57,547 nucleotides of DNA from a virus. Its lineage: Duplodnaviria; Caudoviricetes. The notes beneath the pieces were generated by a model, which did no database searches, was not told the origin of the DNA, and was given only the letters and a program-made list of their open reading frames with translations. The stretch's first letter is position 1. The number at the start of each line of letters is the position of its first letter. Position numbers and translations under genes: made by a program. Positions 4,001 to 47,294 of this stretch are shown here, in pieces. Location of the stretch: IMG/VR virus record IMGVR_UViG_3300003465_000006, positions 1 to 57,547 of that record; one strand, given 5' to 3'.

Positions 4001-4240
4001 ATGTTGGATGTCACGGGGATTCTCAAAGAACTTACCGCCGAGATTGATTACGCTATCGCTGAGTCACATAAGACTCTTGATAGACGTGACGCCCACAACT
4101 GGGCCAAGGGTTATCGCAAAGGCCTGGTGTTCGCTCGCGATCTCCTGCAGGATCGAGTTGTTATCGATTTGACGGAGCAAGCAAAAAAAGCAGACGAGGC
4201 TGACAACGTGGTCAGAATCAAACAAGCGAAAGGGGGATAG
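4001..4240 (+). CDS. Hypothetical protein
   Basis: AAGGAG RBS; 79-aa ORF. Confidence 0.65.
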   Translation: MLDVTGILKELTAEIDYAIAESHKTLDRRDAHNWAKGYRKGLVFARDLLQDRVVIDLTEQAKKADEADNVVRIKQAKGG

Positions 4241-11845: not shown

Positions 11846-13948
11846 ATGGAAGCGGATTTCAGCGGCTACGCCACTAAGGCGGGTCTGAAATGTTCTGACG
11901 GTCGGACCATCATGCCGGATGCCTTCAAGCATCAGGATCAGGCGAAGGTTCCGCTCGTCTGGCAGCATGGTCACACCGATCCCGAGAACGTGCTTGGCCA
12001 CGCAATCCTCGAGAACCGCGACGACGGCGTCTACGCCTACGGCTTCTTCAACAAGTCGCAGAAGGCCTCCCACGCTCGTCAGCTCCTCGAGCACGGTGAC
12101 ATCAACATGATGTCCATCTGGGCCAACGATCTCATCGAGCGTTCGAAGCGTGTTCTTCACGGCGCAATCCGTGAGGTCAGCCTCGTACTTTCCGGTGCTA
12201 ATCCTGGCGCTGTCATCGAGAACGTCACGATTCGTCACTCCGACGACTCTGAGGACATCCTCGACGACGAGGCCATCATCTACACCGGTCTCACTCTCGA
12301 GCATTCCAACGAGGGTGACAAGAACGCCGACGACAAGACCAAGGTCGACGGCGATAAGGTGGATGAGAATGCCGACATCACTCACGCAAGTGGTGGCGAC
12401 AAGACCATCCAGGAAGTCTACGACTCGATGACGGAAGAGCAGAAGCAGGTTCTTCATTTCATGGTCGGAGAGGCTCTTGCAGCTGCTGGTTCAGACAATC
12501 TGCAGCAGAGTGGTCTTGATGACCTCGATGATGACGCTTCGTTCCAGGAAGTCTACGACTCGATGGACGACAACCAGAAGCAGCTTCTCCATTCGATGCT
12601 CGACAAGGCTCTGAATGGTAAAAGGTCCGACGACAAGCTCGATGACGACGACACGAAAGGTAACGGCTCCATGAAGCACAACGTTTTCGAGGATGACAAG
12701 AACGCCAACAAGCCGGCACCTGTCGTCCTGTCCCACTCCGACGTCCAGACCATCGTCTCCGATGCCACGAAGGTGGGTTCCCTCAAGGAGGCCGTCGAGG
12801 CCTACGCCCTCTCGCACGGCATCGAGGACATCGACATCCTCTTCCCCGAGGCGAAGACCCTCGCCGATGCTCCTGAGCTCTTCGGCCGGCGTGTCGAGTG
12901 GGTCAACAAGCTGCTGAACGCGGTCCGCAAGAGCCCGTTCGCCCGCATCAAGACCCTCCAGGCCGACATCACGGTCCAGGAGGCCCGCGCCAAGGGTTAC
13001 ATCAAGGGCAACTTGAAGAAGGAAGAGTTCTTCCGGGTCGCTCGTCGAATCACGACTCCGCAGACGATCTACAAGAAGCAGAAGCTGGATCGTGATGACA
13101 TCATCGACATCACCGACTTCGACGTCGTCGTCTGGCTCAAGGGCGAGATGCGGATCATGCTCGACGAGGAGCTCGCTCGTGCGATTCTCGTTGGTGACGG
13201 TCGTGCCGTCGACGATCCCGACAAGATCAACGAGGACAACATTCGTCCGGTGGCGACTGACAACGAGGTCTACACGACCACGGTCAACGTCAACCTCGAC
13301 GATGCCAACTCTTCCATCCAAGAAGTCGTCGATGCGATCGTGACCAACCGCAGCCAGCTGCGTGGTAGTGGTCTGCCGACGATGTTCGTGAGCGAGACGT
13401 ACATCGCCCGCTTCATGCTCCTGCGTGACGGAGTCGGCCGTCGCATCTACCGCAACCTGGACGAGCTGGCAGCTGAGCTCCGAGTCCAGGAGATCGTGTC
13501 GGTGGAGGTCCTCGAAGAGGATCCGACGATCGTCTGCATTCTGTTCAACCCGATCGACTACGTCGTCGGTGCGGACAAGGGCGGCAACGTCTCGATGTTC
13601 GACGACTTCGACATCGATTACAACCAGTACAAGTACCTCATCGAGACTCGCGTCTCGGGTGCGCTGGTGAAGTTGAAGGCAGCGCTGGTCGTTCGTGCGG
13701 TCGCTGGCACCGATGTTCTTCTCGCCGATCCGACCGACCCGACGTTCGATGCTGCTACTGGCGTCGTGACCATTCCGACCACGGCAAATGTGACGTACTA
13801 CAACGCCGTCACCAACGCGGCTCTCGTCGCAGGTGCTCAGCCCGCTCTCGCCGTTGGGGAGACGCTGAACGTCACCGCAGAGCCCGATGCCGGCTTCTAC
13901 TTCGCCAACAACGCCAACTCGGAGTGGAGCTTCACCAACTTCGAATGA
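11846..13948 (+). CDS. Capsid maturation protease-scaffold-major capsid protein fusion with C-terminal Ig-like extension
   Basis: N-terminal HK97-type protease (FSGYA, PLVWQH, IREVSLV..GANP), acidic linker, capsid-sized C-terminal half; strong GC3 codon bias. Confidence 0.88.
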   Translation: MEADFSGYATKAGLKCSDGRTIMPDAFKHQDQAKVPLVWQHGHTDPENVLGHAILENRDDGVYAYGFFNKSQKASHARQLLEHGDINMMSIWANDLIERSKRVLHGAIREVSLVLSGANPGAVIENVTIRHSDDSEDILDDEAIIYTGLTLEHSNEGDKNADDKTKVDGDKVDENADITHASGGDKTIQEVYDSMTEEQKQVLHFMVGEALAAAGSDNLQQSGLDDLDDDASFQEVYDSMDDNQKQLLHSMLDKALNGKRSDDKLDDDDTKGNGSMKHNVFEDDKNANKPAPVVLSHSDVQTIVSDATKVGSLKEAVEAYALSHGIEDIDILFPEAKTLADAPELFGRRVEWVNKLLNAVRKSPFARIKTLQADITVQEARAKGYIKGNLKKEEFFRVARRITTPQTIYKKQKLDRDDIIDITDFDVVVWLKGEMRIMLDEELARAILVGDGRAVDDPDKINEDNIRPVATDNEVYTTTVNVNLDDANSSIQEVVDAIVTNRSQLRGSGLPTMFVSETYIARFMLLRDGVGRRIYRNLDELAAELRVQEIVSVEVLEEDPTIVCILFNPIDYVVGADKGGNVSMFDDFDIDYNQYKYLIETRVSGALVKLKAALVVRAVAGTDVLLADPTDPTFDAATGVVTIPTTANVTYYNAVTNAALVAGAQPALAVGETLNVTAEPDAGFYFANNANSEWSFTNFE

Positions 13949-34998: not shown

Positions 34999-37900
34999 GT
35001 GGACTTTTACACCATTTTTGTTAATGAGAAGAAAGACGGAACCCTTCAAATCAGGCCGGATTGGAAGGTCGGACGCTCCAATGATCTCATGACCCGTGGC
35101 GGGTCTTTCTATGCTATCTGGGATGAGGAACGAGGTCTTTGGTCGACCGATATCTACGACGTGCAGCGCCTTGTCGATGCTGATCTCGATCGGTACGCCA
35201 AGGAGCAGGAAGCCAAGACTGGCCTCATCTACAAAGTGGCCAAGATGGAATCCAACAGCACGAAGTTGTGGGACGAGTTCCAGAGGTTCGTTCGAAACAG
35301 TGGCAACAACAGCCACAATCTTGACGAGAACCTAGTATTCGCCAATACAGAGGTGAAGAAAGAGGACTATGCGAGTCGTAGACTTGATTACTCTCTCAAC
35401 GACGGGCCTCACGACGCCTGGGACAGCATCGTCGGAACTCTCTACAACGAGGAAGAGCGCGCAAAGATCGAGTGGGCCATAGGAGCGGTTGTTTCTGGAG
35501 ACTCGAAGTTCATCCAGAAGTTCCTCGTCTTCTATGGTCCACCCGGTAGCGGTAAGTCCACCATTCTCAACATCATCCAGAGGTTGTTCGATGGATACGT
35601 CTCGATCTTCGACGCCAGAGAACTCGCTGGCAGCAACAATACTTTCGCTACTTCAGCCTTCAAGTCCAATCCTCTCGTCGCTATTCAGCACGATGGTGAT
35701 CTCTCGAGGATCTACGACAACACGAAACTGAACTCGATTGTAGCTCATGAGTTGATGACGGTGAATGAGAAGTACAAGGCACCGTTCGAGACTCGCTCAC
35801 GTGCATTTCTGTTCATGGGTACAAACGTCCCTGTCAAGATTACAGACGCAAAGAGTGGTATTCTGCGCCGTCTGATCGACGTGGTGCCCACGCAGAAGAC
35901 GATCGAGAACAATACGTACCATGCTTTGATGGACCAGATTGACTTCGAGCTCGGTGCCATCGCAAAACATTGCCTTGATCGATACAAGTCGATGGGTAGG
36001 AACTACTACAGCACGTATCGGCCTACGGTCATGATGCTTCAGACGGATATTTTCTACAACTTCGTCGAGGCAAACTTCGATATTTTCAAGGCTGAGGACG
36101 GAATCACTCTAAAGCGTGCTTGGTCGATCTACAAGGAATACTGCGAAGAAACAGGCATCGACAAAATGCTTCCTCAATACAAATTCCGGGAGGAGCTCAA
36201 GAACTATTTCGATAATTTCGAGGAACGGGCAAGGGTGGATGGTCAAAACGTGCGAAGCTATTACAGTGGGTTCAAACGGTTGCAACTCTCAGGGCCATCT
36301 ACAGAACTTCCAATCAAACCTGAGGGTATTTACAAGATCGAGCTGAATGATGGTCCATCCATATTTGACGAACAAAACCCGGGTCTTCCGGCGCAGTATG
36401 CCAACAAGGACGGGAACCCTCAGAAGAAGTGGACGAATGTCACGACGACTCTCTCCGACATCGACACTACAAAGCTGCATTTCGTCAAGGTGCCGGAGAA
36501 CCACATCGTCATCGACTTCGATCTTGTGGACGACACAGGGGAGAAGGATCTTGAGCTGAATCTCGAACAAGCTTCACGCTGGCCTGCTACATACACGGAG
36601 TTGAGCCAGAGCGGTAAAGGCGTTCACCTACACTATATTTACACTGGAGACGTAAGAGAGCTTGCTTCTGTTTATGATGTGGGTATCGAAGTAAAGACTC
36701 TTCTCGGCGATGCTTCCCTTCGAAGGAAGTTGACTAAGAGCAACGGAATGAACATTACGCCTCTCGATGGGGGCTTGCCGAAGAAGGAGAAATCTGTGCT
36801 TACGGACAAGAGCATCAAGACAGAAAAGGGCCTCCGTGAGCTGATCGCCCGCAACCTTCGCAAGGAGATTCACCCGGGAACGAAGCCGTCCATCGACTTC
36901 ATCCACAAAATCCTTGAGGAGGCTTACGAATCGGGAATGGCCTATGATGTTCAGGACATGCGTTCTGATGTTTTGACTTTTGCTGCTAAGAGCTCGAATC
37001 AGTCCGACTACTGCATCAAAATGGTTCAAAAGATGAAGTTCGTCGGCAAGAATTCGATGCCCGAGACGGATGGCGACGATATTCCTCTGACTTTCTTCGA
37101 TGTCGAGGTGTATCCTAATCTGTTTGTCGTGTGTTGGAAGCATCAAGGACCGGATGCCACAGTCGTTAGGATGATCAATCCCGAACCCGAAGAAATCGAA
37201 CCGCTCTTTGGCATGAGGCTTGTGGGGTTCAACAACCGTCGATACGACAACCATATTCTCTATGCTCGCTATCTAGGGCAATCGCTCGAAGACATCTTCC
37301 ATCTCAGTCAAAAGCTCATCTTCAGCAACGATCGGAATGCATATTTCGGAGAGGCCTACAACATCTCCTACGCTGATATCTATGACTTCAGCTCGAAGAA
37401 GCAAAGCCTGAAGAAATTCGAACTGGAGCTTGGCATCCTTCACATGGAGCTCGATATTCCGTGGGAGCAGCCTGTTCCCGAGGGAATGTGGTCCAAGGTT
37501 GTAGACTATTGCTGCAATGACGTTGTGGCTACAGAAGCGGTGTTCGAGGATCGTAAGCAGGACTTCGTAGCTCGCCAGATTTTGGCTGATATTTCTGGTC
37601 TGTCGGTCAACCAGACCACGCAGGCCCACACTGCGAAGATCATATTTGGAGACGACAGGAGTCCACAACGCAAGTTCGTCTACACCGATCTGAGCAAGGA
37701 ATTCCCAGGGTACGAATTTAATTCCGTAAGAGATGAAAGCGGCAAGGGGTACCGTAATGTCAGTATGTACCGAGGGGAAGAAGTCGGTGAAGGTGGTTAT
37801 GTTTATGCCGAGCCTGGTATATACACGAACGTTGCCCTTCTGGATGTGGCGTCTATGCATCCGACGAGTATCGAGCGACTTGATCTATTCGGGCCGTACA

Positions 37901-38814
37901 CCGAGAACTTCTCAGCACTCAAAGAAGCTCGTCTGGCTGTTAAGCGTAAGGACTACGACAAAGCCCGTGTGCTTCTTGGCGGCAAGCTCGGAAAGTTTCT
38001 CGGAGACGATAAAGATGCTGAGGCACTTGCCTACGCTCTTAAGATCGTTATCAACATCGTCTATGGACTCACTAGCGCCAGATTTGAGAACCCGTTTCGA
38101 GATAACCGCAATAAAGATAACATCGTAGCCAAGCGTGGCGCCCTCTTCATGATCGACTTGAAGCACGCAGTTCAGGAGAAGGGCTTCCAGGTCGTTCACA
38201 TCAAGACCGACTCCATCAAGATCCCGGAAGCGACGCAGGAGATCATCGATTTCGTCATCGATTTCGGAAAGAAGTATGGGTACGACTTCGAACACGAGGT
38301 CACGTACAACAAGTTCTGCCTCGTGAACGATGCGGTCTATATTGCTCGATACGAGGATCGAACAGGTGCACATGAGTATAGTGACGGCGAAACATACAAG
38401 TGGGTGGCGGTCGGAGCGCAGTTCCAGCATCCGTATGTCTTCAAGACGCTGTTCAAGAAGGAAGACATCACGTTCAACGATTTCTGTGAGGCCCGAACGG
38501 TTACACAGGGAGCCATGTATCTCGATTTTTCGGGAACCGGAGAGTTCGAGAACATGGTACACGTCGGTCAAACCGGCATGTTTGTTCCAGTGATGGACGG
38601 CGGAGGGGACTTGTGGAGGGTGAAGGACGACAAGAAGTACGCTGTCGCTGGAACCAAAGGCTACAAGTGGATCACACGAGATGTTGCTGCAGATCGCAAC
38701 AAGATCGGCGAGCTTCATATCGACATAGACTATTTCGAGAAGCTGAGAGAAGCAGCAGAATCAGCGATTGCACAATTCGATTCCGCTGGTGATTTCAGAG
38801 CATTTCTTTCCTAA
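34999..38814 (+). CDS. SF3 helicase-primase-family B DNA polymerase fusion
   Basis: Walker A GPPGSGKST; AEP-like IDFD...GKGVHLHY; exonuclease FFDVE and FN...YD; PolB LDVASMHP, K...N..YG, KTDS. Confidence 0.9.
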   Translation: MDFYTIFVNEKKDGTLQIRPDWKVGRSNDLMTRGGSFYAIWDEERGLWSTDIYDVQRLVDADLDRYAKEQEAKTGLIYKVAKMESNSTKLWDEFQRFVRNSGNNSHNLDENLVFANTEVKKEDYASRRLDYSLNDGPHDAWDSIVGTLYNEEERAKIEWAIGAVVSGDSKFIQKFLVFYGPPGSGKSTILNIIQRLFDGYVSIFDARELAGSNNTFATSAFKSNPLVAIQHDGDLSRIYDNTKLNSIVAHELMTVNEKYKAPFETRSRAFLFMGTNVPVKITDAKSGILRRLIDVVPTQKTIENNTYHALMDQIDFELGAIAKHCLDRYKSMGRNYYSTYRPTVMMLQTDIFYNFVEANFDIFKAEDGITLKRAWSIYKEYCEETGIDKMLPQYKFREELKNYFDNFEERARVDGQNVRSYYSGFKRLQLSGPSTELPIKPEGIYKIELNDGPSIFDEQNPGLPAQYANKDGNPQKKWTNVTTTLSDIDTTKLHFVKVPENHIVIDFDLVDDTGEKDLELNLEQASRWPATYTELSQSGKGVHLHYIYTGDVRELASVYDVGIEVKTLLGDASLRRKLTKSNGMNITPLDGGLPKKEKSVLTDKSIKTEKGLRELIARNLRKEIHPGTKPSIDFIHKILEEAYESGMAYDVQDMRSDVLTFAAKSSNQSDYCIKMVQKMKFVGKNSMPETDGDDIPLTFFDVEVYPNLFVVCWKHQGPDATVVRMINPEPEEIEPLFGMRLVGFNNRRYDNHILYARYLGQSLEDIFHLSQKLIFSNDRNAYFGEAYNISYADIYDFSSKKQSLKKFELELGILHMELDIPWEQPVPEGMWSKVVDYCCNDVVATEAVFEDRKQDFVARQILADISGLSVNQTTQAHTAKIIFGDDRSPQRKFVYTDLSKEFPGYEFNSVRDESGKGYRNVSMYRGEEVGEGGYVYAEPGIYTNVALLDVASMHPTSIERLDLFGPYTENFSALKEARLAVKRKDYDKARVLLGGKLGKFLGDDKDAEALAYALKIVINIVYGLTSARFENPFRDNRNKDNIVAKRGALFMIDLKHAVQEKGFQVVHIKTDSIKIPEATQEIIDFVIDFGKKYGYDFEHEVTYNKFCLVNDAVYIARYEDRTGAHEYSDGETYKWVAVGAQFQHPYVFKTLFKKEDITFNDFCEARTVTQGAMYLDFSGTGEFENMVHVGQTGMFVPVMDGGGDLWRVKDDKKYAVAGTKGYKWITRDVAADRNKIGELHIDIDYFEKLREAAESAIAQFDSAGDFRAFLS

Positions 38815-41752: not shown

Positions 41753-41962
41753 ATGATCAACATGGGTTATGTGGCGTTCGATAAAAAGAAGCTCTCGAGA
41801 GACTCTCGAATCAAGATCGAGAAACTTTTGGGGCTTGATGGACCGTTGCCGATATATGAGTGCGATGCGCGTGGTTGGCTCGGCGTAGAGCCTCCTGGTC
41901 CATATTGGGAATACTGGCCTCAAAGCAGCTGCCCGTGGATCATTCGTTTCACCGTCGTCTGA
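41753..41962 (+). CDS. Hypothetical protein
   Basis: 69-aa ORF; weak RBS. Confidence 0.45.
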   Translation: MINMGYVAFDKKKLSRDSRIKIEKLLGLDGPLPIYECDARGWLGVEPPGPYWEYWPQSSCPWIIRFTVV

Positions 41963-42385
41963 GCGACGTTAAACAGCGCTTAAGCTCAGAGCGTCAGGGC
42001 GCTAGGAAGTGTTCAATAGGCCATATTCTTACAGTCTGTACAGAAGCCGCCACTTCTGGTCAGGCCGCTCTGGATGCGTGTCCGAAACCTCAGTTGACAG
42101 GTCTTGGTAGAGACTTGTAGTGCGAGCTACCACTCGTATAGATAAGAGGCTGAACCTCCATATCGAAGCCGAGAACAAACCGCCGAGGTGAGTGGAACTC
42201 GGAGAGGAAGGACCTTGTCCGTCCACCGGGCGTTGGCTGGCATACCCAGCGAAGAAAGGGTGGAACCGCCCAGTATGCCCTTTTAAAGTAGAGAGAGCTA
42301 CCAGTTCTGGCGTGGCTGGTGCTGATAGACAGTGGGCGCCCCCTAAGGCCTTAGGAAACAATTGCCCGGCTCTTTCTACGCTCAT
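41958..42385 (+). ncRNA. Candidate ~430-nt structured RNA (strand assumed)
   Basis: No convincing ORF; many consecutive hairpins, including GTAGAGAGAGC/GCTCTTTCTAC. Confidence 0.45.
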
Positions 42386-42935: not shown

Positions 42936-43047
42936 CGATTCGTGGTGGGTTGGGAGTACGCCTAGGGGTCGTTTACCGTTCGGCCGAAACTGTGTTACAG
43001 GGATAACAACCCTGGCCCACCATCTTCACGCTCTGGAAAGGAGCATA

Positions 43048-43371
43048 ATGGAAGTCGAACGAGCAGCAGAGCTTCTCAACGGTTGTGTGCGTGAGGAGCT
43101 GCAGGACCACGCCTTCGGCGATGCCGAGGTGTTCTGGAGGAAGAACGACACTCTCGTTGCAGAGGGGTATTTCAGCGGGCCATTCGCTGAAGTGGTCTTC
43201 GAGATCGGAGACGTCAAGTTCTTCGCCGACGATGCCCGCAAGCTGAGGAATTGCGGTACGATGGGCGCCGTCTCACGCAACGACTCGACCGGTCCCGACA
43301 CGTATTCCGAAGGTGAGATCATGTCAGGTCTCACGCTGGAAGGTGTTCGCAAGGAGCTGACGGGGGAATGA
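43048..43371 (+). CDS. Hypothetical protein
   Basis: AAAGGAG RBS. Confidence 0.75.
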   Translation: MEVERAAELLNGCVREELQDHAFGDAEVFWRKNDTLVAEGYFSGPFAEVVFEIGDVKFFADDARKLRNCGTMGAVSRNDSTGPDTYSEGEIMSGLTLEGVRKELTGE

Positions 43372-43673
43372 GGGAGATCTGGAAGTACGAGCTGGAGGTT
43401 GCCGACGTACAGAAGATCTGGATGACGAAGGGCGCTGAGATTCTTCACGTTGCCGGCCAAGAGAAGTCGAGTCTTTCCCAAGGCCATGCCTACTTTGGAG
43501 TCTTTCCGATGTTGTGGGCTTTGATCGATCCTGGTGCAGAGAGAGTTCAGCGACTGATCGCTGTTGTCGGCTCTGGAAACCCGGCTCCATCCGAGGAAGA
43601 TTCGGCTAAGTACGTCGGCACGGCTATCTGCGGAATGATGGTGTGGCATGTGTTCGATGGCGGAGAGTTGTAA
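43368..43673 (+). CDS. Hypothetical protein
   Basis: IWKY.L...GA.ILHV...LWAL.D...YVGT...VWHVF, a common phage small-protein pattern. Confidence 0.75.
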   Translation: MREIWKYELEVADVQKIWMTKGAEILHVAGQEKSSLSQGHAYFGVFPMLWALIDPGAERVQRLIAVVGSGNPAPSEEDSAKYVGTAICGMMVWHVFDGGEL

Positions 43674-44165
43674 AGTGGGGACAGCGGATTCCTACGTCTT
43701 CTAAGCGTGGGGAGGTGCACCGTCCGTTGACTTGGCGTACCTCACGGACTTGTTCAAACCGAGACCGTCGAGTCTAACCCACTAACTTCTGATCCTGCAC
43801 GGTACCGTGGGTGACGACAGCGTTGATGTCGTGAACGACTAACCGGCCCGTCAAGAGAGATATGGATACTGCTGGTACGGAACGGCAAGTCTGTGTCTCT
43901 TGGGCGACGAGGAGATCGGAATCGACGGAGCTGTTTTTGAACAGAGGCGGTATTGAATATAAAGCAAGTCCCATGAGTTTGTTGAAGGAGGCCTAAAACA
44001 GCCATGGCTGGTACTCGGCCTTCAACAACTCGTGGTTATTCTCATCTGGTACGTGAGAAGTGGTCAGTAGTAATCGTGGGTGGGCTCTAGAAGAGCAAAG
44101 GCCCTTTGTCATAGTGAAGTCAGGCGCCCTCCAGCCCTTGGCGAACCTGCTATGGACCACACTAA
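43674..44165 (+). ncRNA. Candidate ~490-nt structured RNA upstream of the Cas7-like gene (strand assumed)
   Basis: No credible ORF; long stems such as CCATGAGTTTGTTGAAGG/CCTTCAACAACTCGTGG and CAAGAGA/TCTCTTG. Confidence 0.5.
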
Positions 44166-44200
44166 TCTCTATGTTCCACAACATTTAAGGAGAACTGACA

Positions 44201-44800
44201 ATGTGGAATGAGTATGACCTAACTTTCGAGCTCATGGAACCGATTCTCGGAACCATCCCGAAGGATCGAAACGTCTTCGAGAACTTTATCATGGATCATG
44301 CCAAGACAGAGATGGAGAAGGAGAAGGCGGCAGAGGACATCAATCGTGTGCCAGAAGAAATCGAGGCGCGGGGGTGGACCGGATTCTACGAGGATGACGA
44401 AGGCCATCCGATCCTGATGGACTACCAGTTCAAAGGGTTCCTCAAGAATGCTGGAAACATTCTGAAGGATTCGATCGGGATCAAGAATCTGAGATCCCAT
44501 ATCAACGACACGGTTTTCGTTATGCCACGGTCAATCATGTTGGCCGAGAAGCCTGACGACGTGCTCGAGAGGCCTCTGCGTGCGATGACGATGCAGGGCC
44601 CGCGAGTCTCGGTGGTGCGATCGGACATTATCAGTCCTGGCCGCCACTACAATCTGACGATCATGGTTCTCGACAAGTCGAAGGTAACAGAGGACGCCCT
44701 TCGTTCCGTCTTGTCATATGGGGAGTTCTGCGGGCTGCTCCAGTGGCGCAACGGCGGGTACGGTCGCTTCAAGGTGGTGGAATTCAACAACAAGAAGTGA
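44201..44800 (+). CDS. Stand-alone Cas7/RAMP-superfamily-like protein
   Basis: First strand YDLTFELMEPILG; GHPILMDYQFKGFLK (compare RAMP P.IPGSSLKG.LR); C-terminal G-rich loop YGEFCGLLQWRNGGYGRFKV; AAGGAG RBS. Confidence 0.78.
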   Translation: MWNEYDLTFELMEPILGTIPKDRNVFENFIMDHAKTEMEKEKAAEDINRVPEEIEARGWTGFYEDDEGHPILMDYQFKGFLKNAGNILKDSIGIKNLRSHINDTVFVMPRSIMLAEKPDDVLERPLRAMTMQGPRVSVVRSDIISPGRHYNLTIMVLDKSKVTEDALRSVLSYGEFCGLLQWRNGGYGRFKVVEFNNKK

Positions 44801-44850
44801 TTCAAAGTCCTGGGTATGACTCTAAATCTGCCCTTTTGCTTTTTTGTGAT

Positions 44851-45243
44851 GGTATGGCGGGGTCTGATACCGCACCGTAACGGTTGTGTCAAGCGCGGTT
44901 GAGTAATGGTAACGCACAGCGGTGTAGTGTGGTGATGATGTGAGGCTATGTGCGCTTTAGTAAAGGTAAGGTGGGGTACCGTCATATCTCGTTTCGTAAC
45001 GGCATCGTGTTGAGACGTACGGTGGCGGTAACGCTAGGTCCGATAACGTAGAGGTAGGGTTGCGTAAGGTACTGACCTGTAGTGAAAGAGTATTGTTGTG
45101 TGTAGTGTTGGTAACGCACTGTTGTGTGTAGTGTTGGTAACGCGATGTACCGGTCCTGTGAGGCTGGGTGTGGTATAGGTAAAGTGGTGTACGGTATTGT
45201 TACGGTGAAGCCAAGTCCGGCGAAGTGCCGTTATGTGATGTAA
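44851..45243 (+). repeat. Pentameric NGY-NN array (76 pentamers in 14 blocks), candidate guide-RNA array
   Basis: Manual parse: 68/76 pentamers are N-G-Y-N-N; blocks separated by single extra bases; 12/14 blocks start with GGY. Confidence 0.85.
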
Positions 45244-45270
45244 AACTTCCCCCAAACAAGAATGAGGAGA

Positions 45271-45858
45271 ATGCGAAAAGCACTGATTATCGCGTCGGTC
45301 ATCGTTCTAATTTTCACCTCGGTCATGTGGATCACTGCCGAGAACAAACTCGATGATATGACCTCCGAGAAAGGCAAGCTTCAAACAGACTACATCATTC
45401 TCAAGGGTACACAGACAGCAACGAAACAGTCCTTGAAAAATACCTCCAAGGCGTACGTTGAGTCACAGCAGAGAATTGCTGAGCTAGAACGCCTGCATAC
45501 CGAACAACAGAACAGAGTTTCAGAGCTTGAGAAGAAGCTACAGACAGAGAAAGCCAAACAGACGGCCTCGAGAAGCTCGACACGACAAAGAACGACGGTT
45601 GCTGCCTCTGCAAGTAGCGGGAATTCAGACTTTTGGAGACGACTGGCTAACTGCGAGTGTGCCTCTGGCCACTGCGGTGGACCCTACGTCGGGTATTTCC
45701 AGTTCTCCAGAGACACAGCAGCAAAAGTCGGGATCGATGGGTCAGAGTCTTACGAAGAGCAGAGAGCTGCTGCTCAAGCGTGGGCTCAACGCATCCATCC
45801 ACGAGAAGGAACCAGCTCCGGATGGCCCGTATGCTGGTGGAAAGCGCAAGGAGCATAA
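45271..45858 (+). CDS. Membrane-anchored coiled-coil protein with C-terminal Rpf/lytic transglycosylase-like domain
   Basis: N-terminal TM, coiled coil, then FWRRLANCE...GYFQFS..T...EEQ..AA....GWPVC. Confidence 0.75.
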   Translation: MRKALIIASVIVLIFTSVMWITAENKLDDMTSEKGKLQTDYIILKGTQTATKQSLKNTSKAYVESQQRIAELERLHTEQQNRVSELEKKLQTEKAKQTASRSSTRQRTTVAASASSGNSDFWRRLANCECASGHCGGPYVGYFQFSRDTAAKVGIDGSESYEEQRAAAQAWAQRIHPREGTSSGWPVCWWKAQGA

Positions 45859-46732
45859 TGGCAGAAACAGCATTGCTCGTCTGGATCGAAGGTGGTCCGA
45901 CAAGCGGGAGCCTTCCATCGGTCATCGGCCCATTTCCAAACGCTGAAGTGGCCGTTGCGTTTTCGAAGGCGTTTCTTGATGGAAATGTCGAGACGACGCG
46001 GATGACGCAATTGTCTACGCCTCAGGACGCCGCAAAATCGATGAACCAACTGGTGCCTCACTGATGTGGGTCTATTGCACATCGAAGAACAAAGGTCCTT
46101 CTTGGAATGACGATCCGGTACGAATGATGTATGTTGGTACATCTGTGAAGGACGCAGAAGCCGCTGTTGGTGATTTCTCCAAGTATCAGAAGGACGAGAA
46201 AGACTTCCCCAAGAATTACCCCGAGTTGTATTCGGCTCTACCTCTCGACTTTGAGAGGGAGATGATCCAGTTCTACATGGCCGATGGCTGGTGGTACTCG
46301 ATCGAGCGATTCCAATTCAAAACAGATAATGAGGAGGAAGCTAATGTCACATAACTTCAACAAGACGGAGAAGGTCGTCACAGGACTGCTGGCGGCAATC
46401 CTATTCTTCATCCTAATCCAGACCGTCCGCTATCTCAAGAAGGATTAGTGAAGAGAATCACCGTTTCGCCTCAAGCCTATCGAAGGGTAATTGCTTTTAC
46501 ATGGTTCATGCAAGGCGCTAGCTTTGGTATGGTCCTCACGTCGTTTCTGCTTGAGAAGCAGCGGAAGGCATTCAACGACAAAATCACCAAACGGCACACT
46601 CTGATTGTCGATGCCTACGATCAGATCCAGAAGATTGGTCATGACGTCACTCTTTCTGGCGAAGAGCGTGAGAAGAAGATGAACGAGATCGTGGACTTCA
46701 TCCGAGTCATCTCGAGTCAGGATTTGATGTGA
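45858..46732 (+). other. Small hypothetical genes: 45858-46064, 46064-46354, 46448-46732
   Basis: TAATG and TGATG coupling; RBSs. Confidence 0.65.
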
Positions 46733-46899: not shown

Positions 46900-46972
46900 G
46901 CCTCCATAGCTCAGTTGGTAGAGCAGCGGACTTTTAATCCGACGGTCGTGGGTTCGAATCCCTCTGGGGGCA
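46900..46972 (+). tRNA. tRNA-Lys(UUU), no encoded CCA
   Basis: Acceptor GCCTCCA/TGGGGGC, D arm GCTC-AGTTGGTA-GAGC, anticodon loop CTTTTAA, T loop TTCGAAT. Confidence 0.92.
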
Positions 46973-47294
46973 CTGTACTATCCGGCGGCAATACGACTGG
47001 GGGGTAGTTGAACAGCATTTCTTACTGCAATCCTTGTGGAGACAAAAAGCACTGGCCAAGGAAAATAGAGAAAAAACATGGAACTTGCTCGGTGTGTGGT
47101 AAAGAAACAATGGTGAACGAATCCCCAAGCAGTGTTCTGTACGTACCAAAGCACGTTTCACCAAATCAACTACAATTCTTCGGGATGCTCTTTTAATGAG
47201 GAGAATAATACGTAAAATCATCCATCTAATCGAAAGGTTCTTAGAGATCATTCTTACAGGAGAATCCTTCAAAGCTCAATAGAGCGGGGCGATA

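What the first reader, a model, noticed from the sequence alone, without database searches (positions are those of the whole stretch)
44845..45243. Two-level grammar of the array: 5-nt period, reset by single-base insertions into 14 blocks
Manual parse from 44851: ggtat ggcgg ggtct gatac cgcac cgtaa|c|ggttg tgtca agcgc ggttg agtaa|t|ggtaa cgcac agcgg tgtag tgtgg tgatg|a|...|c|ggtga agcca agtcc ggcga agtgc cgtta tgtga tgtaa. There are 76 pentamers plus 13 single bases. G is at position 2 in 72/76 and NGY holds in 68/76. Block sizes are 6,5,6,5,7,5,5,7,4,5,3,5,5,8 pentamers (mode 5, giving a 26-nt unit). Twelve of 14 blocks start with GGY, six with GGTAA. Positions 4-5 vary, so this is not a simple satellite. 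Inference: the +1 base plus GGTAA marks boundaries or processing sites of individual guides. A hairpin and T tract (about 44812-44845) separate gene from array and could be a terminator or processing signal.
Basis: seen in the sequence. Interest (0 to 1): 0.88.

Follow-up and report, generated by a model that had tools for sequence, protein, structure and literature searches.

The report
Phage VIPR guide-RNA array, punctuated form
The five-base-periodic stretch is the guide-RNA array of a phage VIPR system, a recently described CRISPR-like way for phages to silence rival phages, and its single-base resets most likely separate short individual guides.

Summary
An automatic parse of 44851-45243 gives 76 pentamers and 13 inserted bases, with G at position 2 in 72/76, NGY in 68/76, and blocks of 6,5,6,5,7,5,5,7,4,5,3,5,5,8. 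None of 1000 dinucleotide shuffles reaches it.

The 199-aa gene just upstream (44201-44800) has a Cas7-type RAMP fold. Its G-loop aligns with the Vipr protein of phage SUSP1. In 115 of 118 loci encoding a homologue, a 5-nt-periodic array lies in the fetched flanks of the gene.

This matches the VIPR systems described in 2026 preprints: a phage RAMP protein plus pentanucleotide-repeat guide RNAs. The kind is therefore known, and this locus is a new member.

It differs from the characterised type II. There is no 3' tail, no conserved accessory gene, the first G of the repeat is relaxed (NGY), and an extra base follows about every five units.

In relatives, whole blocks are shared and reordered between arrays. 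Three natural guide-target candidates are each confined to one block.

RNA ends are untested, and no target was found for this phage's own guides.

The parts
44201..44800 (+). vipr-like gene: a 199-aa single-domain RAMP protein (Cas7-like fold) with a C-terminal G-loop (GLLQWRNGGYGRF) and a long beta-hairpin 'thumb'
   Evidence: ORF. No Pfam family; phrog_4652 (function unknown) at E 8e-6. 664 homologues. AlphaFold model with pLDDT 84.7. Foldseek best hits are Cas7 of type VII and Csm3 of type III, E 1e-7, TM about 0.55. hhalign to the SUSP1 Vipr G-loop gives probability 73%, E 3e-5.
44799..44845 (+). Conserved intergenic element (core 44806-44826) followed by a T-rich run. It lies between the gene's stop codon and the array. 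It is possibly a promoter or operator-like element, and it is not a convincing terminator.
   Evidence: Inverted repeat. The fold is not better than shuffles. There is one copy in the window. 13 copies were found in 10 close relatives, 7 of them 55-70 nt upstream of the RAMP gene, others after or inside the array; 10 of them were aligned with the window's copy. The stem has one compensatory pair in 2 of 11 sequences.
44851..45243 (+). vrRNA-type array of 76 NGY/NN pentamers in 14 blocks, separated by 13 single inserted bases. Blocks: 44851-44881, 44882-44907, 44908-44938, 44939-44964, 44965-45000, 45001-45026, 45027-45052, 45053-45088, 45089-45109, 45110-45135, 45136-45151, 45152-45177, 45178-45203, 45204-45243.
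   Evidence: Parse. Shuffle controls. It is on the same strand as the gene and all neighbouring genes. As RNA it is not significantly structured: z -1.45, with 7 of 100 shuffles folding as well.
45094..45143 (+). Exact tandem duplication with a 26-nt period (1.9 copies). This equals one block length, across blocks 9-10.
   Evidence: Tandem Repeats Finder reports 100% matches and score 100. The period equals the 5x5+1 block length.

Best explanation
The locus 44201-45243 is a VIPR (Viral Interference Programmable Repeat) system carried by an uncultivated tailed phage. The 199-aa RAMP protein (Vipr) is expected to polymerise along the transcript of the array, one protomer per pentamer. Each protomer clamps the conserved G-Y and exposes the variable bases, which pair with DNA of a rival mobile element and silence it.

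What is shown here is the fold, the homology to SUSP1 Vipr, the repeat grammar and the gene-array linkage. The mechanism is inferred from experiments on type II VIPR in the literature.

Within this scheme the array is a punctuated, tail-less variant. Each block runs from a GGYAA unit to the extra base and holds typically 5-6 units. I read each block as one short guide. That length is about one helical turn of the published filament, which has 5 subunits per turn when DNA-bound and 6 when free.

Three natural matches in related phages suggest a reading rule for this clade. The repeat's relaxed first position also pairs with the target base that type II skips. The target would then be read as contiguous triplets while GY is looped out of the guide. 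This last step is tentative.
For: (1) Protein. The Cas7/Csm3/gRAMP fold is the top Foldseek result, with 155 PDB matches at E<=0.001. The G-loop aligns with SUSP1 Vipr. The SUSP1 CDS carries 13 of the 14 residues named in the structural preprint, so the comparison is with the studied protein.

(2) Linkage. Of 118 homologue loci (80 viral, 10 metagenome, 28 genome), 115 have a 150-nt window scoring above all 2266 null windows from this phage. Of these, 108 are on the gene's strand: 79 downstream and 29 upstream of the gene. Most best windows lie within 300 nt of the gene; a few lie up to about 1.4 kb away. Two of the three loci without an array end 31 nt or less after the gene, and the third ends 149 nt after it.

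(3) Grammar. In 76 unique arrays, position 2 is G in 88% and position 3 is Y in 86%. Of 1153 blocks, the sizes peak at 5 units (286) and 6 units (243). The unit after an insertion has G1 in 68%, against 37% elsewhere. Mean period is 5.15-5.42 nt across the 81 parsed arrays (80 loci plus the window), 5.15-5.40 leaving out two weak parses.

(4) Modularity. Eight block families are shared among six relatives' arrays, with block-sized insertions and different neighbours. The window has an exact 26-nt duplication.

(5) Targets in relatives. One guide gives a 21/21 contiguous match to the ribosome-binding site and start codon of an AlpA-like gene in another Vipr phage. That 21-mer occurs once in the whole IMG/VR collection, at that site. 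Two further candidates match 22/24 and 19/21. For these three, third positions match 7/7, 6/8 and 6/7. Three-fold decoys yield one hit at 6/7 or better. None of the three extends into flanking blocks.

(6) Literature. I read the Results, Discussion and two Methods sections of 10.64898/2026.04.26.720920. They describe phage RAMP plus GGY/NN vrRNAs, alternative YNNNG repeats, 'staggered arrays', and 3 target nt per 5 guide nt. I read part 1 of 2 of the Results of 10.64898/2026.04.26.720927. It reports one protomer per repeat, 5-6 subunits per turn, and G1 read by H17 and D177. In one search this clade aligns Q181 with D177, and Q181 is invariant in the 20-sequence alignment. That fits a relaxed G1.
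Against: There is no RNA evidence for this locus or clade, and no run was listed, so transcription, processing and guide length are all inferred.

No target was found for the window's own guides. Four blocks read as contiguous triplets have no exact match in IMG/VR, and block 14 has none in genome contigs. The NN-only pattern of block 14 gives 26 hits, about the number expected by chance, and third positions match at most 3/7.

Outside the three candidates, real guides match a 3.07-Mb local database no better than decoys. The 22/24 candidate is A-rich and of low complexity. The 19/21 candidate alone is within decoy range.

A 5-unit guide specifies only 10-16 nt, far less than the 9-16 repeats of type II vrRNAs. 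Among 42 clusters of near-identical blocks, only position 2 is invariant (0/226 columns vary). Positions 1, 3, 4 and 5 vary alike at 8-13%, so this test does not show which positions carry information.

No accessory (vap) gene is conserved. Homology to SUSP1 Vipr is detectable only over 46 C-terminal columns. The window's blocks are less regular than those of its closest relatives.
Confidence: 0.8

Rival explanations
1. It is a VIPR array, but the blocks are not separate guides. The functional vrRNAs span several blocks (9-16 repeats as in type II), or the whole array forms one filament. The +1 base would then be a structural spacer that keeps the RNA in register with the helical filament once per turn.
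For: The published filament has 5-6 protomers and about 25 nt of RNA per turn, which matches the block mode of 5-6 units and 26 nt. Type II vrRNAs have 9-16 repeats. A 5-unit guide carries little specificity.
Against: Block sizes range widely, from 3 to 8 units in the window and 1 to 21 family-wide, which does not fit a fixed structural register. The three target candidates stop at block ends, with flanks matching 3/18, 9/21, 4/12, 4/12, 1/6 and 0/6. Blocks move between arrays as units.
Confidence: 0.13
2. The array acts as RNA but not as a guide. It would be a decoy or sponge that titrates a rival phage's or the host's RAMP proteins, or it would regulate the phage's own Vipr protein.
For: No target was found for this window's blocks. 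The window's blocks are less regular than those of relatives. RNA anti-CRISPRs that mimic repeats exist; this is recalled and comes from no call.
Against: The variable positions are highly diverse between arrays: 846 unique block sequences among 914 blocks. A sponge does not need that diversity. Relatives show specific matches to regulatory sites of other phages. The array is always coupled to its own RAMP gene.
Confidence: 0.04
3. The array is a DNA-level element such as iterons, a partition or packaging site, or phased DNA. The mean 5.2-bp period is half a helical turn of about 10.4 bp and would be read by a DNA-binding protein.
For: Mean period is 5.15-5.42 nt in the 81 parsed arrays, so two periods are close to the B-DNA helical repeat.
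Against: There is strong strand asymmetry (G 36%, C 15%). The G-Y strand is the gene's strand in 108 of 115 arrays. The partner protein has an RNA-binding RAMP fold. The characterised homologous system acts through RNA.
Confidence: 0.02

Closest known systems
VIPR systems (Vipr protein plus vrRNA), type II of Escherichia phage SUSP1 and the Pseudomonas fulva prophage. Sources: bioRxiv 10.64898/2026.04.26.720920 and 10.64898/2026.04.26.720927.
   Same: Both are phage-encoded. Both have a single small RAMP protein of about 20 kDa with a G-loop and thumb. Both have an adjacent same-strand array of pentanucleotide repeats with a conserved G-Y and variable NN. In relatives, guides match regulatory sites of other phages with 3 target nt per 5 guide nt.
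   Different: SUSP1 vrRNAs are about 15 uninterrupted GGYNN units followed by a conserved tail of about 40 nt, separated by non-repeat sequence, and a vap gene follows vipr. Here the array is continuous with no tails. An extra base follows about every 5 units. The first G is relaxed (GGY in only 27/76 units). No accessory gene is conserved. Protein similarity is detectable only in the C-terminal 46 columns.
'Staggered vrRNA arrays' and YNNNG-type repeats, mentioned for other VIPR types in 10.64898/2026.04.26.720920 (legend of fig. S18 and the Methods on type classification; the figures and data files were not visible).
   Same: The legend describes vrRNAs taken from positions overlapping by 1 nt, so that the end of one marks the start of the next. 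That is what a +1 frame reset between abutting guides would look like. YNNNG is the repeat class seen here.
   Different: The preprint says this architecture was not confirmed by small-RNA sequencing, unlike the two others it tested. In the parts I read it gives no guide length or targeting rule for it. Whether this clade is the one shown there cannot be told without the supplement.
Cas7 backbone subunits of class 1 CRISPR-Cas (Csm3, type VII Cas7, Cas7-11)
   Same: The closest solved folds share the RRM core, G-rich loop and thumb. Both bind guide RNA with a fixed nucleotide period.
   Different: There is no CRISPR repeat-spacer array and no other cas gene. The period is 5 nt, not 6. Sequence identity is 8-16%.

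Membership tests
VIPR system | Small single-RRM RAMP protein (Vipr) with a glycine-rich loop and a thumb | tested here: met
   AlphaFold model with pLDDT 84.7. Foldseek top hits are Cas7/Csm3 at E 1e-7. The G-loop GLxQWRNGGYGRF is conserved in 20 sequences. hhalign to SUSP1 Vipr covers the G-loop region only, at probability 73% and E 3e-5.
VIPR system | Tandem pentanucleotide repeats (GGY/NN or a related consensus) in the intergenic DNA flanking vipr | tested here: met
   76 units with NGY in 68/76 and GGY in 27/76. The array starts 50 nt after the stop codon on the same strand. 115 of 118 homologue loci have such an array.
VIPR system | Encoded mainly by phages and proviruses | tested here: met
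   The window is a whole virus record, 96% complete by CheckV. It carries terminase, portal, capsid-protease and D5-like primase genes.
VIPR system | vrRNA is expressed and co-purifies with Vipr | not testable with these tools
   No sequencing run was listed for 44201-45300.
VIPR system | Guides recognise DNA with 3 target nt per 5-nt repeat (1-nt skip rule), and natural targets lie in competing mobile elements | tested here: inconclusive
   In relatives there are three candidates with this geometry (21/21, 22/24, 19/21), two of them at AlpA-like regulator genes of other Vipr phages. For the window's own blocks there is no match.
VIPR system | Accessory gene (vap) next to vipr; the preprint calls this 'typical' and names six vap families across seven types | tested here: not met
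   tblastn of 14 neighbouring ORFs of the window finds none of them in the 80 viral loci. After vipr, the largest same-strand ORF cluster is present in 7 of 81 loci. Remote homology was not tested.
VIPR type II (SUSP1 clade) | Each vrRNA is 9-16 uninterrupted YNNGG repeats plus a conserved 3' tail or pseudoknot | tested here: not met
   The window array has no interspersed non-repeat tails and has insertions about every 5 units. The SUSP1 arrays were read for comparison.
CRISPR-Cas class 1 | Repeat-spacer array of about 60-80 nt period, and further cas genes | tested here: not met
   The only tandem repeats near the gene have periods of 6 and 26 nt. No cas families were found among the 14 window proteins scanned against Pfam. 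No CRISPR RNA family was found in Rfam.
TIGR-Tas | Nop-domain Tas protein and an array of about 18-nt period | tested here: not met
   The protein has a RAMP fold. The periods are 5 and 26 nt. The defining features of TIGR-Tas are recalled, together with a mention in 10.64898/2026.10.21.760802.

The most novel reading that the evidence does not exclude
This widespread Vipr clade has 664 homologues and occurs in MAGs labelled as about a dozen phyla-level groups. It may use a distinct form of the VIPR code. Guides would be single-turn guides of 5-6 repeats, abutting in tail-less arrays and delimited by one extra base plus a GGYAA unit. They would read target DNA as contiguous triplets, because repeat position 1, freed by the D-to-Q change in the G-loop, pairs with the base that type II VIPR skips. 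Arrays would evolve by gain, loss and shuffling of whole blocks, as CRISPR spacers do but without any known adaptation machinery.
Probability: 0.3. Interest if true: 0.7.

Novelty: new member of a known kind. Interest (0 to 1): 0.45.

Why it matters
That the signature is real and recognisable is useful in itself.

For the field, the value lies in the variant architecture. The block punctuation is conserved across 76 unique arrays. If each block is a guide, VIPR guides can be as short as one filament turn and can be packed without tails or ribozymes. That bears on how vrRNAs are made and on the smallest programmable unit.

The hint that position 1 pairs with the 'skipped' base would mean the noncontiguous code has a contiguous-target variant. 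The guide-target links among Vipr-carrying phages (L023 to G012, L031 to G016, L074 to G021) fit the proposed phage-against-phage role of these systems.

Tried and rejected
(1) DNA similarity of 43000-46500 to 50,697 phage records found no match. tblastn of the protein found 7 distant records and did not find SUSP1.

(2) Pfam gave nothing significant for the 199-aa protein. PHROGs gave only an unknown-function family. Rfam gave nothing in the array.

(3) The first scan of viral contigs with the single protein found no relative. The alignment-based scan then worked.

(5) Sequencing runs: none was listed.

(6) Guide-reading rules tested against a 0.58-Mb local database were NN with 0, 1 or 2 skipped bases and NNN with 0 or 1. 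Real and decoy distributions were the same except for one 21/21 hit.

(7) A search for Shine-Dalgarno-plus-ATG enrichment in guides read as triplets gave 14 guides, against 7.9 +/- 2.9 in shuffles. This is weak and was not used. Guides starting with ATG (51/846) are what the composition predicts.

(8) The substitution pattern among 42 clusters of near-identical blocks was uninformative beyond the invariant G2.

(9) Window guides gave four exact scans of IMG/VR with 0 hits and one scan of genome contigs with 0 hits. The NN-only pattern of block 14 gave 26 hits spread over unrelated genes that share an (E/D)(H/Q)P(E/D)A motif. Third positions matched at most 3/7, which is chance level.

(10) The intrinsic-terminator reading of 44799-44845 was rejected on folding energy. 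The array itself is not significantly structured.

(11) Ideas considered early and dropped were a TRAP-like or CsrA-like protein-binding RNA, a rut site on the minus strand, a TIGR array, and phased DNA. All were superseded by the RAMP fold and the VIPR literature.

(12) The host could not be named. The closest genome hit is 48% identical, and the MAG hits span many phyla.

Full report
**1. Observation**

The stretch 44851-45243 lies between two plus-strand genes, at 44201-44800 and 45262-45858. It is G+T rich and C poor: G 36%, T 28%, A 21%, C 15%.

Identity autocorrelation peaks at lags 5, 10, 21, 26, 31 and 36, with 0.42 at lag 5 and 0.46 at lag 26. The phase of the G column moves forward by one base thirteen times.

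It gives 76 pentamers and 13 inserted bases, with G2 in 72/76 and NGY in 68/76. Block sizes are 6,5,6,5,7,5,5,7,4,5,3,5,5,8.

None of 1000 dinucleotide-preserving shuffles reaches the observed lag-5, lag-26 or parse scores; z is 6.6 to 14.4. No other such array exists in the window.

**2. The partner gene**

The 199-aa product of 44201-44800 has no Pfam family and only an unknown-function PHROG. It has 664 homologues in the large protein collection.

Three motifs are conserved: LGTxPK near the N-terminus, ERPLRAMTxQGPRV, and GLxQWRNGGYGRF near the C-terminus.

The AlphaFold model has pLDDT 84.7. Its best PDB matches are Cas7 of type VII, Csm3 of type III-A and the Cas7 domains of gRAMP, at E down to 1e-7 and TM about 0.5-0.6. 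It is therefore a stand-alone Cas7-like RAMP protein.

**3. Linkage of gene and array**

Nothing else around the gene is conserved. None of 14 neighbouring ORFs of the window recurs in the 80 viral loci. After the RAMP gene, the largest same-strand ORF cluster is in 7 of 81 loci.

The array always recurs. Of 118 loci with a homologue (80 IMG/VR, 10 metagenome, 28 genome or MAG), 115 hold a 150-nt window whose parse score exceeds every one of 2266 null windows from this phage. Of these, 108 are on the gene's strand, 79 downstream and 29 upstream. Most best windows lie within 300 nt of the gene; a few lie up to about 1.4 kb away.

Seven arrays score best on the other strand, and some of these are GC-type arrays whose motif is nearly palindromic. 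Of the three loci without an array, two end 31 nt or less after the gene and the third ends 149 nt after it.

Arrays are roughly 150-1125 nt long. Two weak parses are shorter.

**4. What it is**

A literature search led to bioRxiv 10.64898/2026.04.26.720920. I read its Results, Discussion and two Methods sections. It describes VIPR systems:
- A phage-encoded minimal RAMP protein called Vipr.
- vrRNAs of 9-16 YNNGG repeats (GGY/NN) with a 3' tail.
- Target DNA read through the NN bases with one target base skipped per repeat.
- Natural targets in competing phages and satellites.
- Seven types, with variant repeats (NNNGG, YNNNG, NNNNG) and variant arrays. The variants include 'staggered arrays with overlapping vrRNAs', which the authors state were not confirmed by small-RNA sequencing.

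I read part 1 of 2 of the Results of a companion structural preprint, 10.64898/2026.04.26.720927. It shows one protomer per repeat and a helical filament of six subunits per turn when free and five when DNA-bound. About 25 nt of RNA make one turn. G1 is read by H17 and D177, G2 by R138 and W178, and Y3 by R179 and neighbouring residues.

Passages of a third preprint, 10.64898/2026.10.21.760802, report 99 intergenic clusters of period 5, including non-canonical motifs such as WGT/NN. Passages of a fourth, 10.64898/2026.10.15.759431, gave nothing on processing.

I located the reference system in phage SUSP1 (KT454805.2). Its 195-aa CDS carries 13 of the 14 residues named in the structural paper. 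Its G-loop region aligns with my family profile at probability 73% and E 3e-5 over 46 columns.

The window locus is therefore a VIPR system, and the kind is already in print.

**5. How it differs from the characterised type**

SUSP1 vrRNAs are about 15 uninterrupted GGYNN units, each followed by a tail of about 40 nt. A second gene (vap) follows vipr there.

The window array differs in four ways:
- It is continuous and has no tails.
- The full GGY motif occurs in only 27/76 units.
- An extra base follows about every five units.
- No accessory gene is conserved in the clade.

The punctuation is a property of the family. In 76 unique arrays, 1153 blocks peak at 5 units (286) and 6 units (243). 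The unit after an insertion has G at position 1 in 68%, against 37% elsewhere, and is most often GGCAA, GGCAT or GGTAA. Mean period is 5.15-5.42 nt across the 81 parsed arrays.

In the closest relatives (63-75% protein identity) the blocks are strikingly regular: GGTAA, then 3-6 variable units, then AGTGA or AGTAA, then one base.

The relaxed first G fits the protein. Where SUSP1 has D177-W178-R179, this clade has an invariant Q181-W182-R183. The G1-binding aspartate is replaced, while the G2 and Y3 contacts are kept. This is an inference from an alignment, not a structure.

**6. Are blocks guides?**

Four lines of indirect evidence say yes.

(a) Among six relatives, eight block families are shared. 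There are block-sized insertions, for example B. C D E F against B.. C D E F, and shared blocks occur with different neighbours.

(b) The window holds an exact 26-nt tandem duplication, which is one block length.

(c) The block mode of 5-6 units equals one turn of the published filament.

(d) Natural matches. I read each block as triplets made of positions 4 and 5 plus position 1 of the next unit, with the inserted base last. This has the same 3-per-5 geometry as the published rule.

One guide of L023 matches 21/21 the ribosome-binding site and start codon of a 63-aa AlpA-like gene. That gene lies just upstream of the vipr gene of another phage, L015/G012. The 21-mer occurs exactly once in the whole IMG/VR collection, at that site.

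I then enlarged the local database to 3.07 Mb with 49 whole contigs. Two more candidates appeared. A guide of L031 matches 22/24 in the divergent promoter region before an AlpA-like gene of G016, which is the phage of L023. A guide of L074 matches 19/21 in G021, which is the phage of L031.

For the 188 guides of 7 or more units, I collected all sites with at most one NN mismatch. Third positions matched 7/7, 6/8 and 6/7 for these three. Three-fold decoys gave one site at 6/7 or better. None of the three matches continues into neighbouring blocks: the flanks match 3/18, 9/21, 4/12, 4/12, 1/6 and 0/6.

**7. Caveats**

These three cases are few. One is A-rich, and one is within decoy range on its own. 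Apart from them, real and decoy guides behave alike.

The substitution test among 42 clusters of near-identical blocks shows only that G2 never varies.

For the window's own guides I found no target. There were four exact contiguous scans of IMG/VR, one of genome contigs, and one NN-only scan whose 26 hits look like chance. No RNA data could be obtained, so processing at the +1 sites is untested.

I could not see the preprint's supplementary figures and data. They may already show this clade and this architecture.

**8. The element before the array**

The 'hairpin and T tract' is the window's single copy of a conserved element, with its core at 44806-44826.

In close relatives the element occurs mostly 55-70 nt upstream of the vipr start. 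There it is followed, after about 17 nt, by a TTAAT-like hexamer. It also occurs after the array (L086, L090) or inside it (L091, L092).

Its short stem has one compensatory pair in 2 of 11 sequences. The RNA fold is no better than shuffles. I read it as a promoter or operator-like element rather than a terminator. In the window the downstream hexamer is not conserved, so this stays open.

**9. Verdict**

The system is a member of the recently described VIPR family, so it is not new as a category.

The punctuated, tail-less, vap-less architecture, and the possible contiguous-triplet reading, are the parts worth following up.

Noticed in passing
window 41953-42002 (+): A Pistol self-cleaving ribozyme match in Rfam (45.6 bits, gathering score 34.5), 2.2 kb upstream of the vipr gene. 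The VIPR preprint reports hammerhead ribozymes between vrRNAs in some types, but no periodic array lies next to this one.
   Followed up: partly
window 46900-46973 (+): A tRNA-Lys (anticodon TTT) gene 1.7 kb downstream of the array.
   Followed up: no
window 45262-45858 (+): The gene after the array encodes a 198-aa protein with an N-terminal hydrophobic segment and a coiled-coil-like middle. It has no Pfam hit above threshold and is not conserved next to vipr in other loci.
   Followed up: partly
window 11846-13948 (+) and 34999-38814 (+): The first is a 700-aa fusion of prohead protease (Peptidase_S78) and major capsid protein. The second is a 1271-aa D5/DUF5906 primase-helicase-like protein.
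   Followed up: no
L085-L094 and window 44806-44826: A conserved element of about 30 nt (core GTCCTGGGYATGACT followed by an A-rich run and GGCC) recurs up to twice per locus in close relatives, mostly just upstream of vipr. The window has a single copy, placed between vipr and the array.
   Followed up: partly
G021 (loci L031 and L032), 150-kb virus record: This record carries two copies of the vipr gene and array in opposite orientation, at 61206-61784 (+) and 88647-89225 (-). IMG/VR classes the record as having inverted terminal repeats.
   Followed up: no
L017, about 4090-4130: The array is followed directly by sequence resembling the 3' half of a tRNA (a GGTTCAAATCC T-arm motif).
   Followed up: no
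L015/G012 1-2100: The best local matches of three different phages' guides fall in the same 2-kb stretch just upstream of this phage's own vipr gene: L023 at 21/21, L040 at 20/24 and L047 at 20/24. The last two are individually at chance level.
   Followed up: partly
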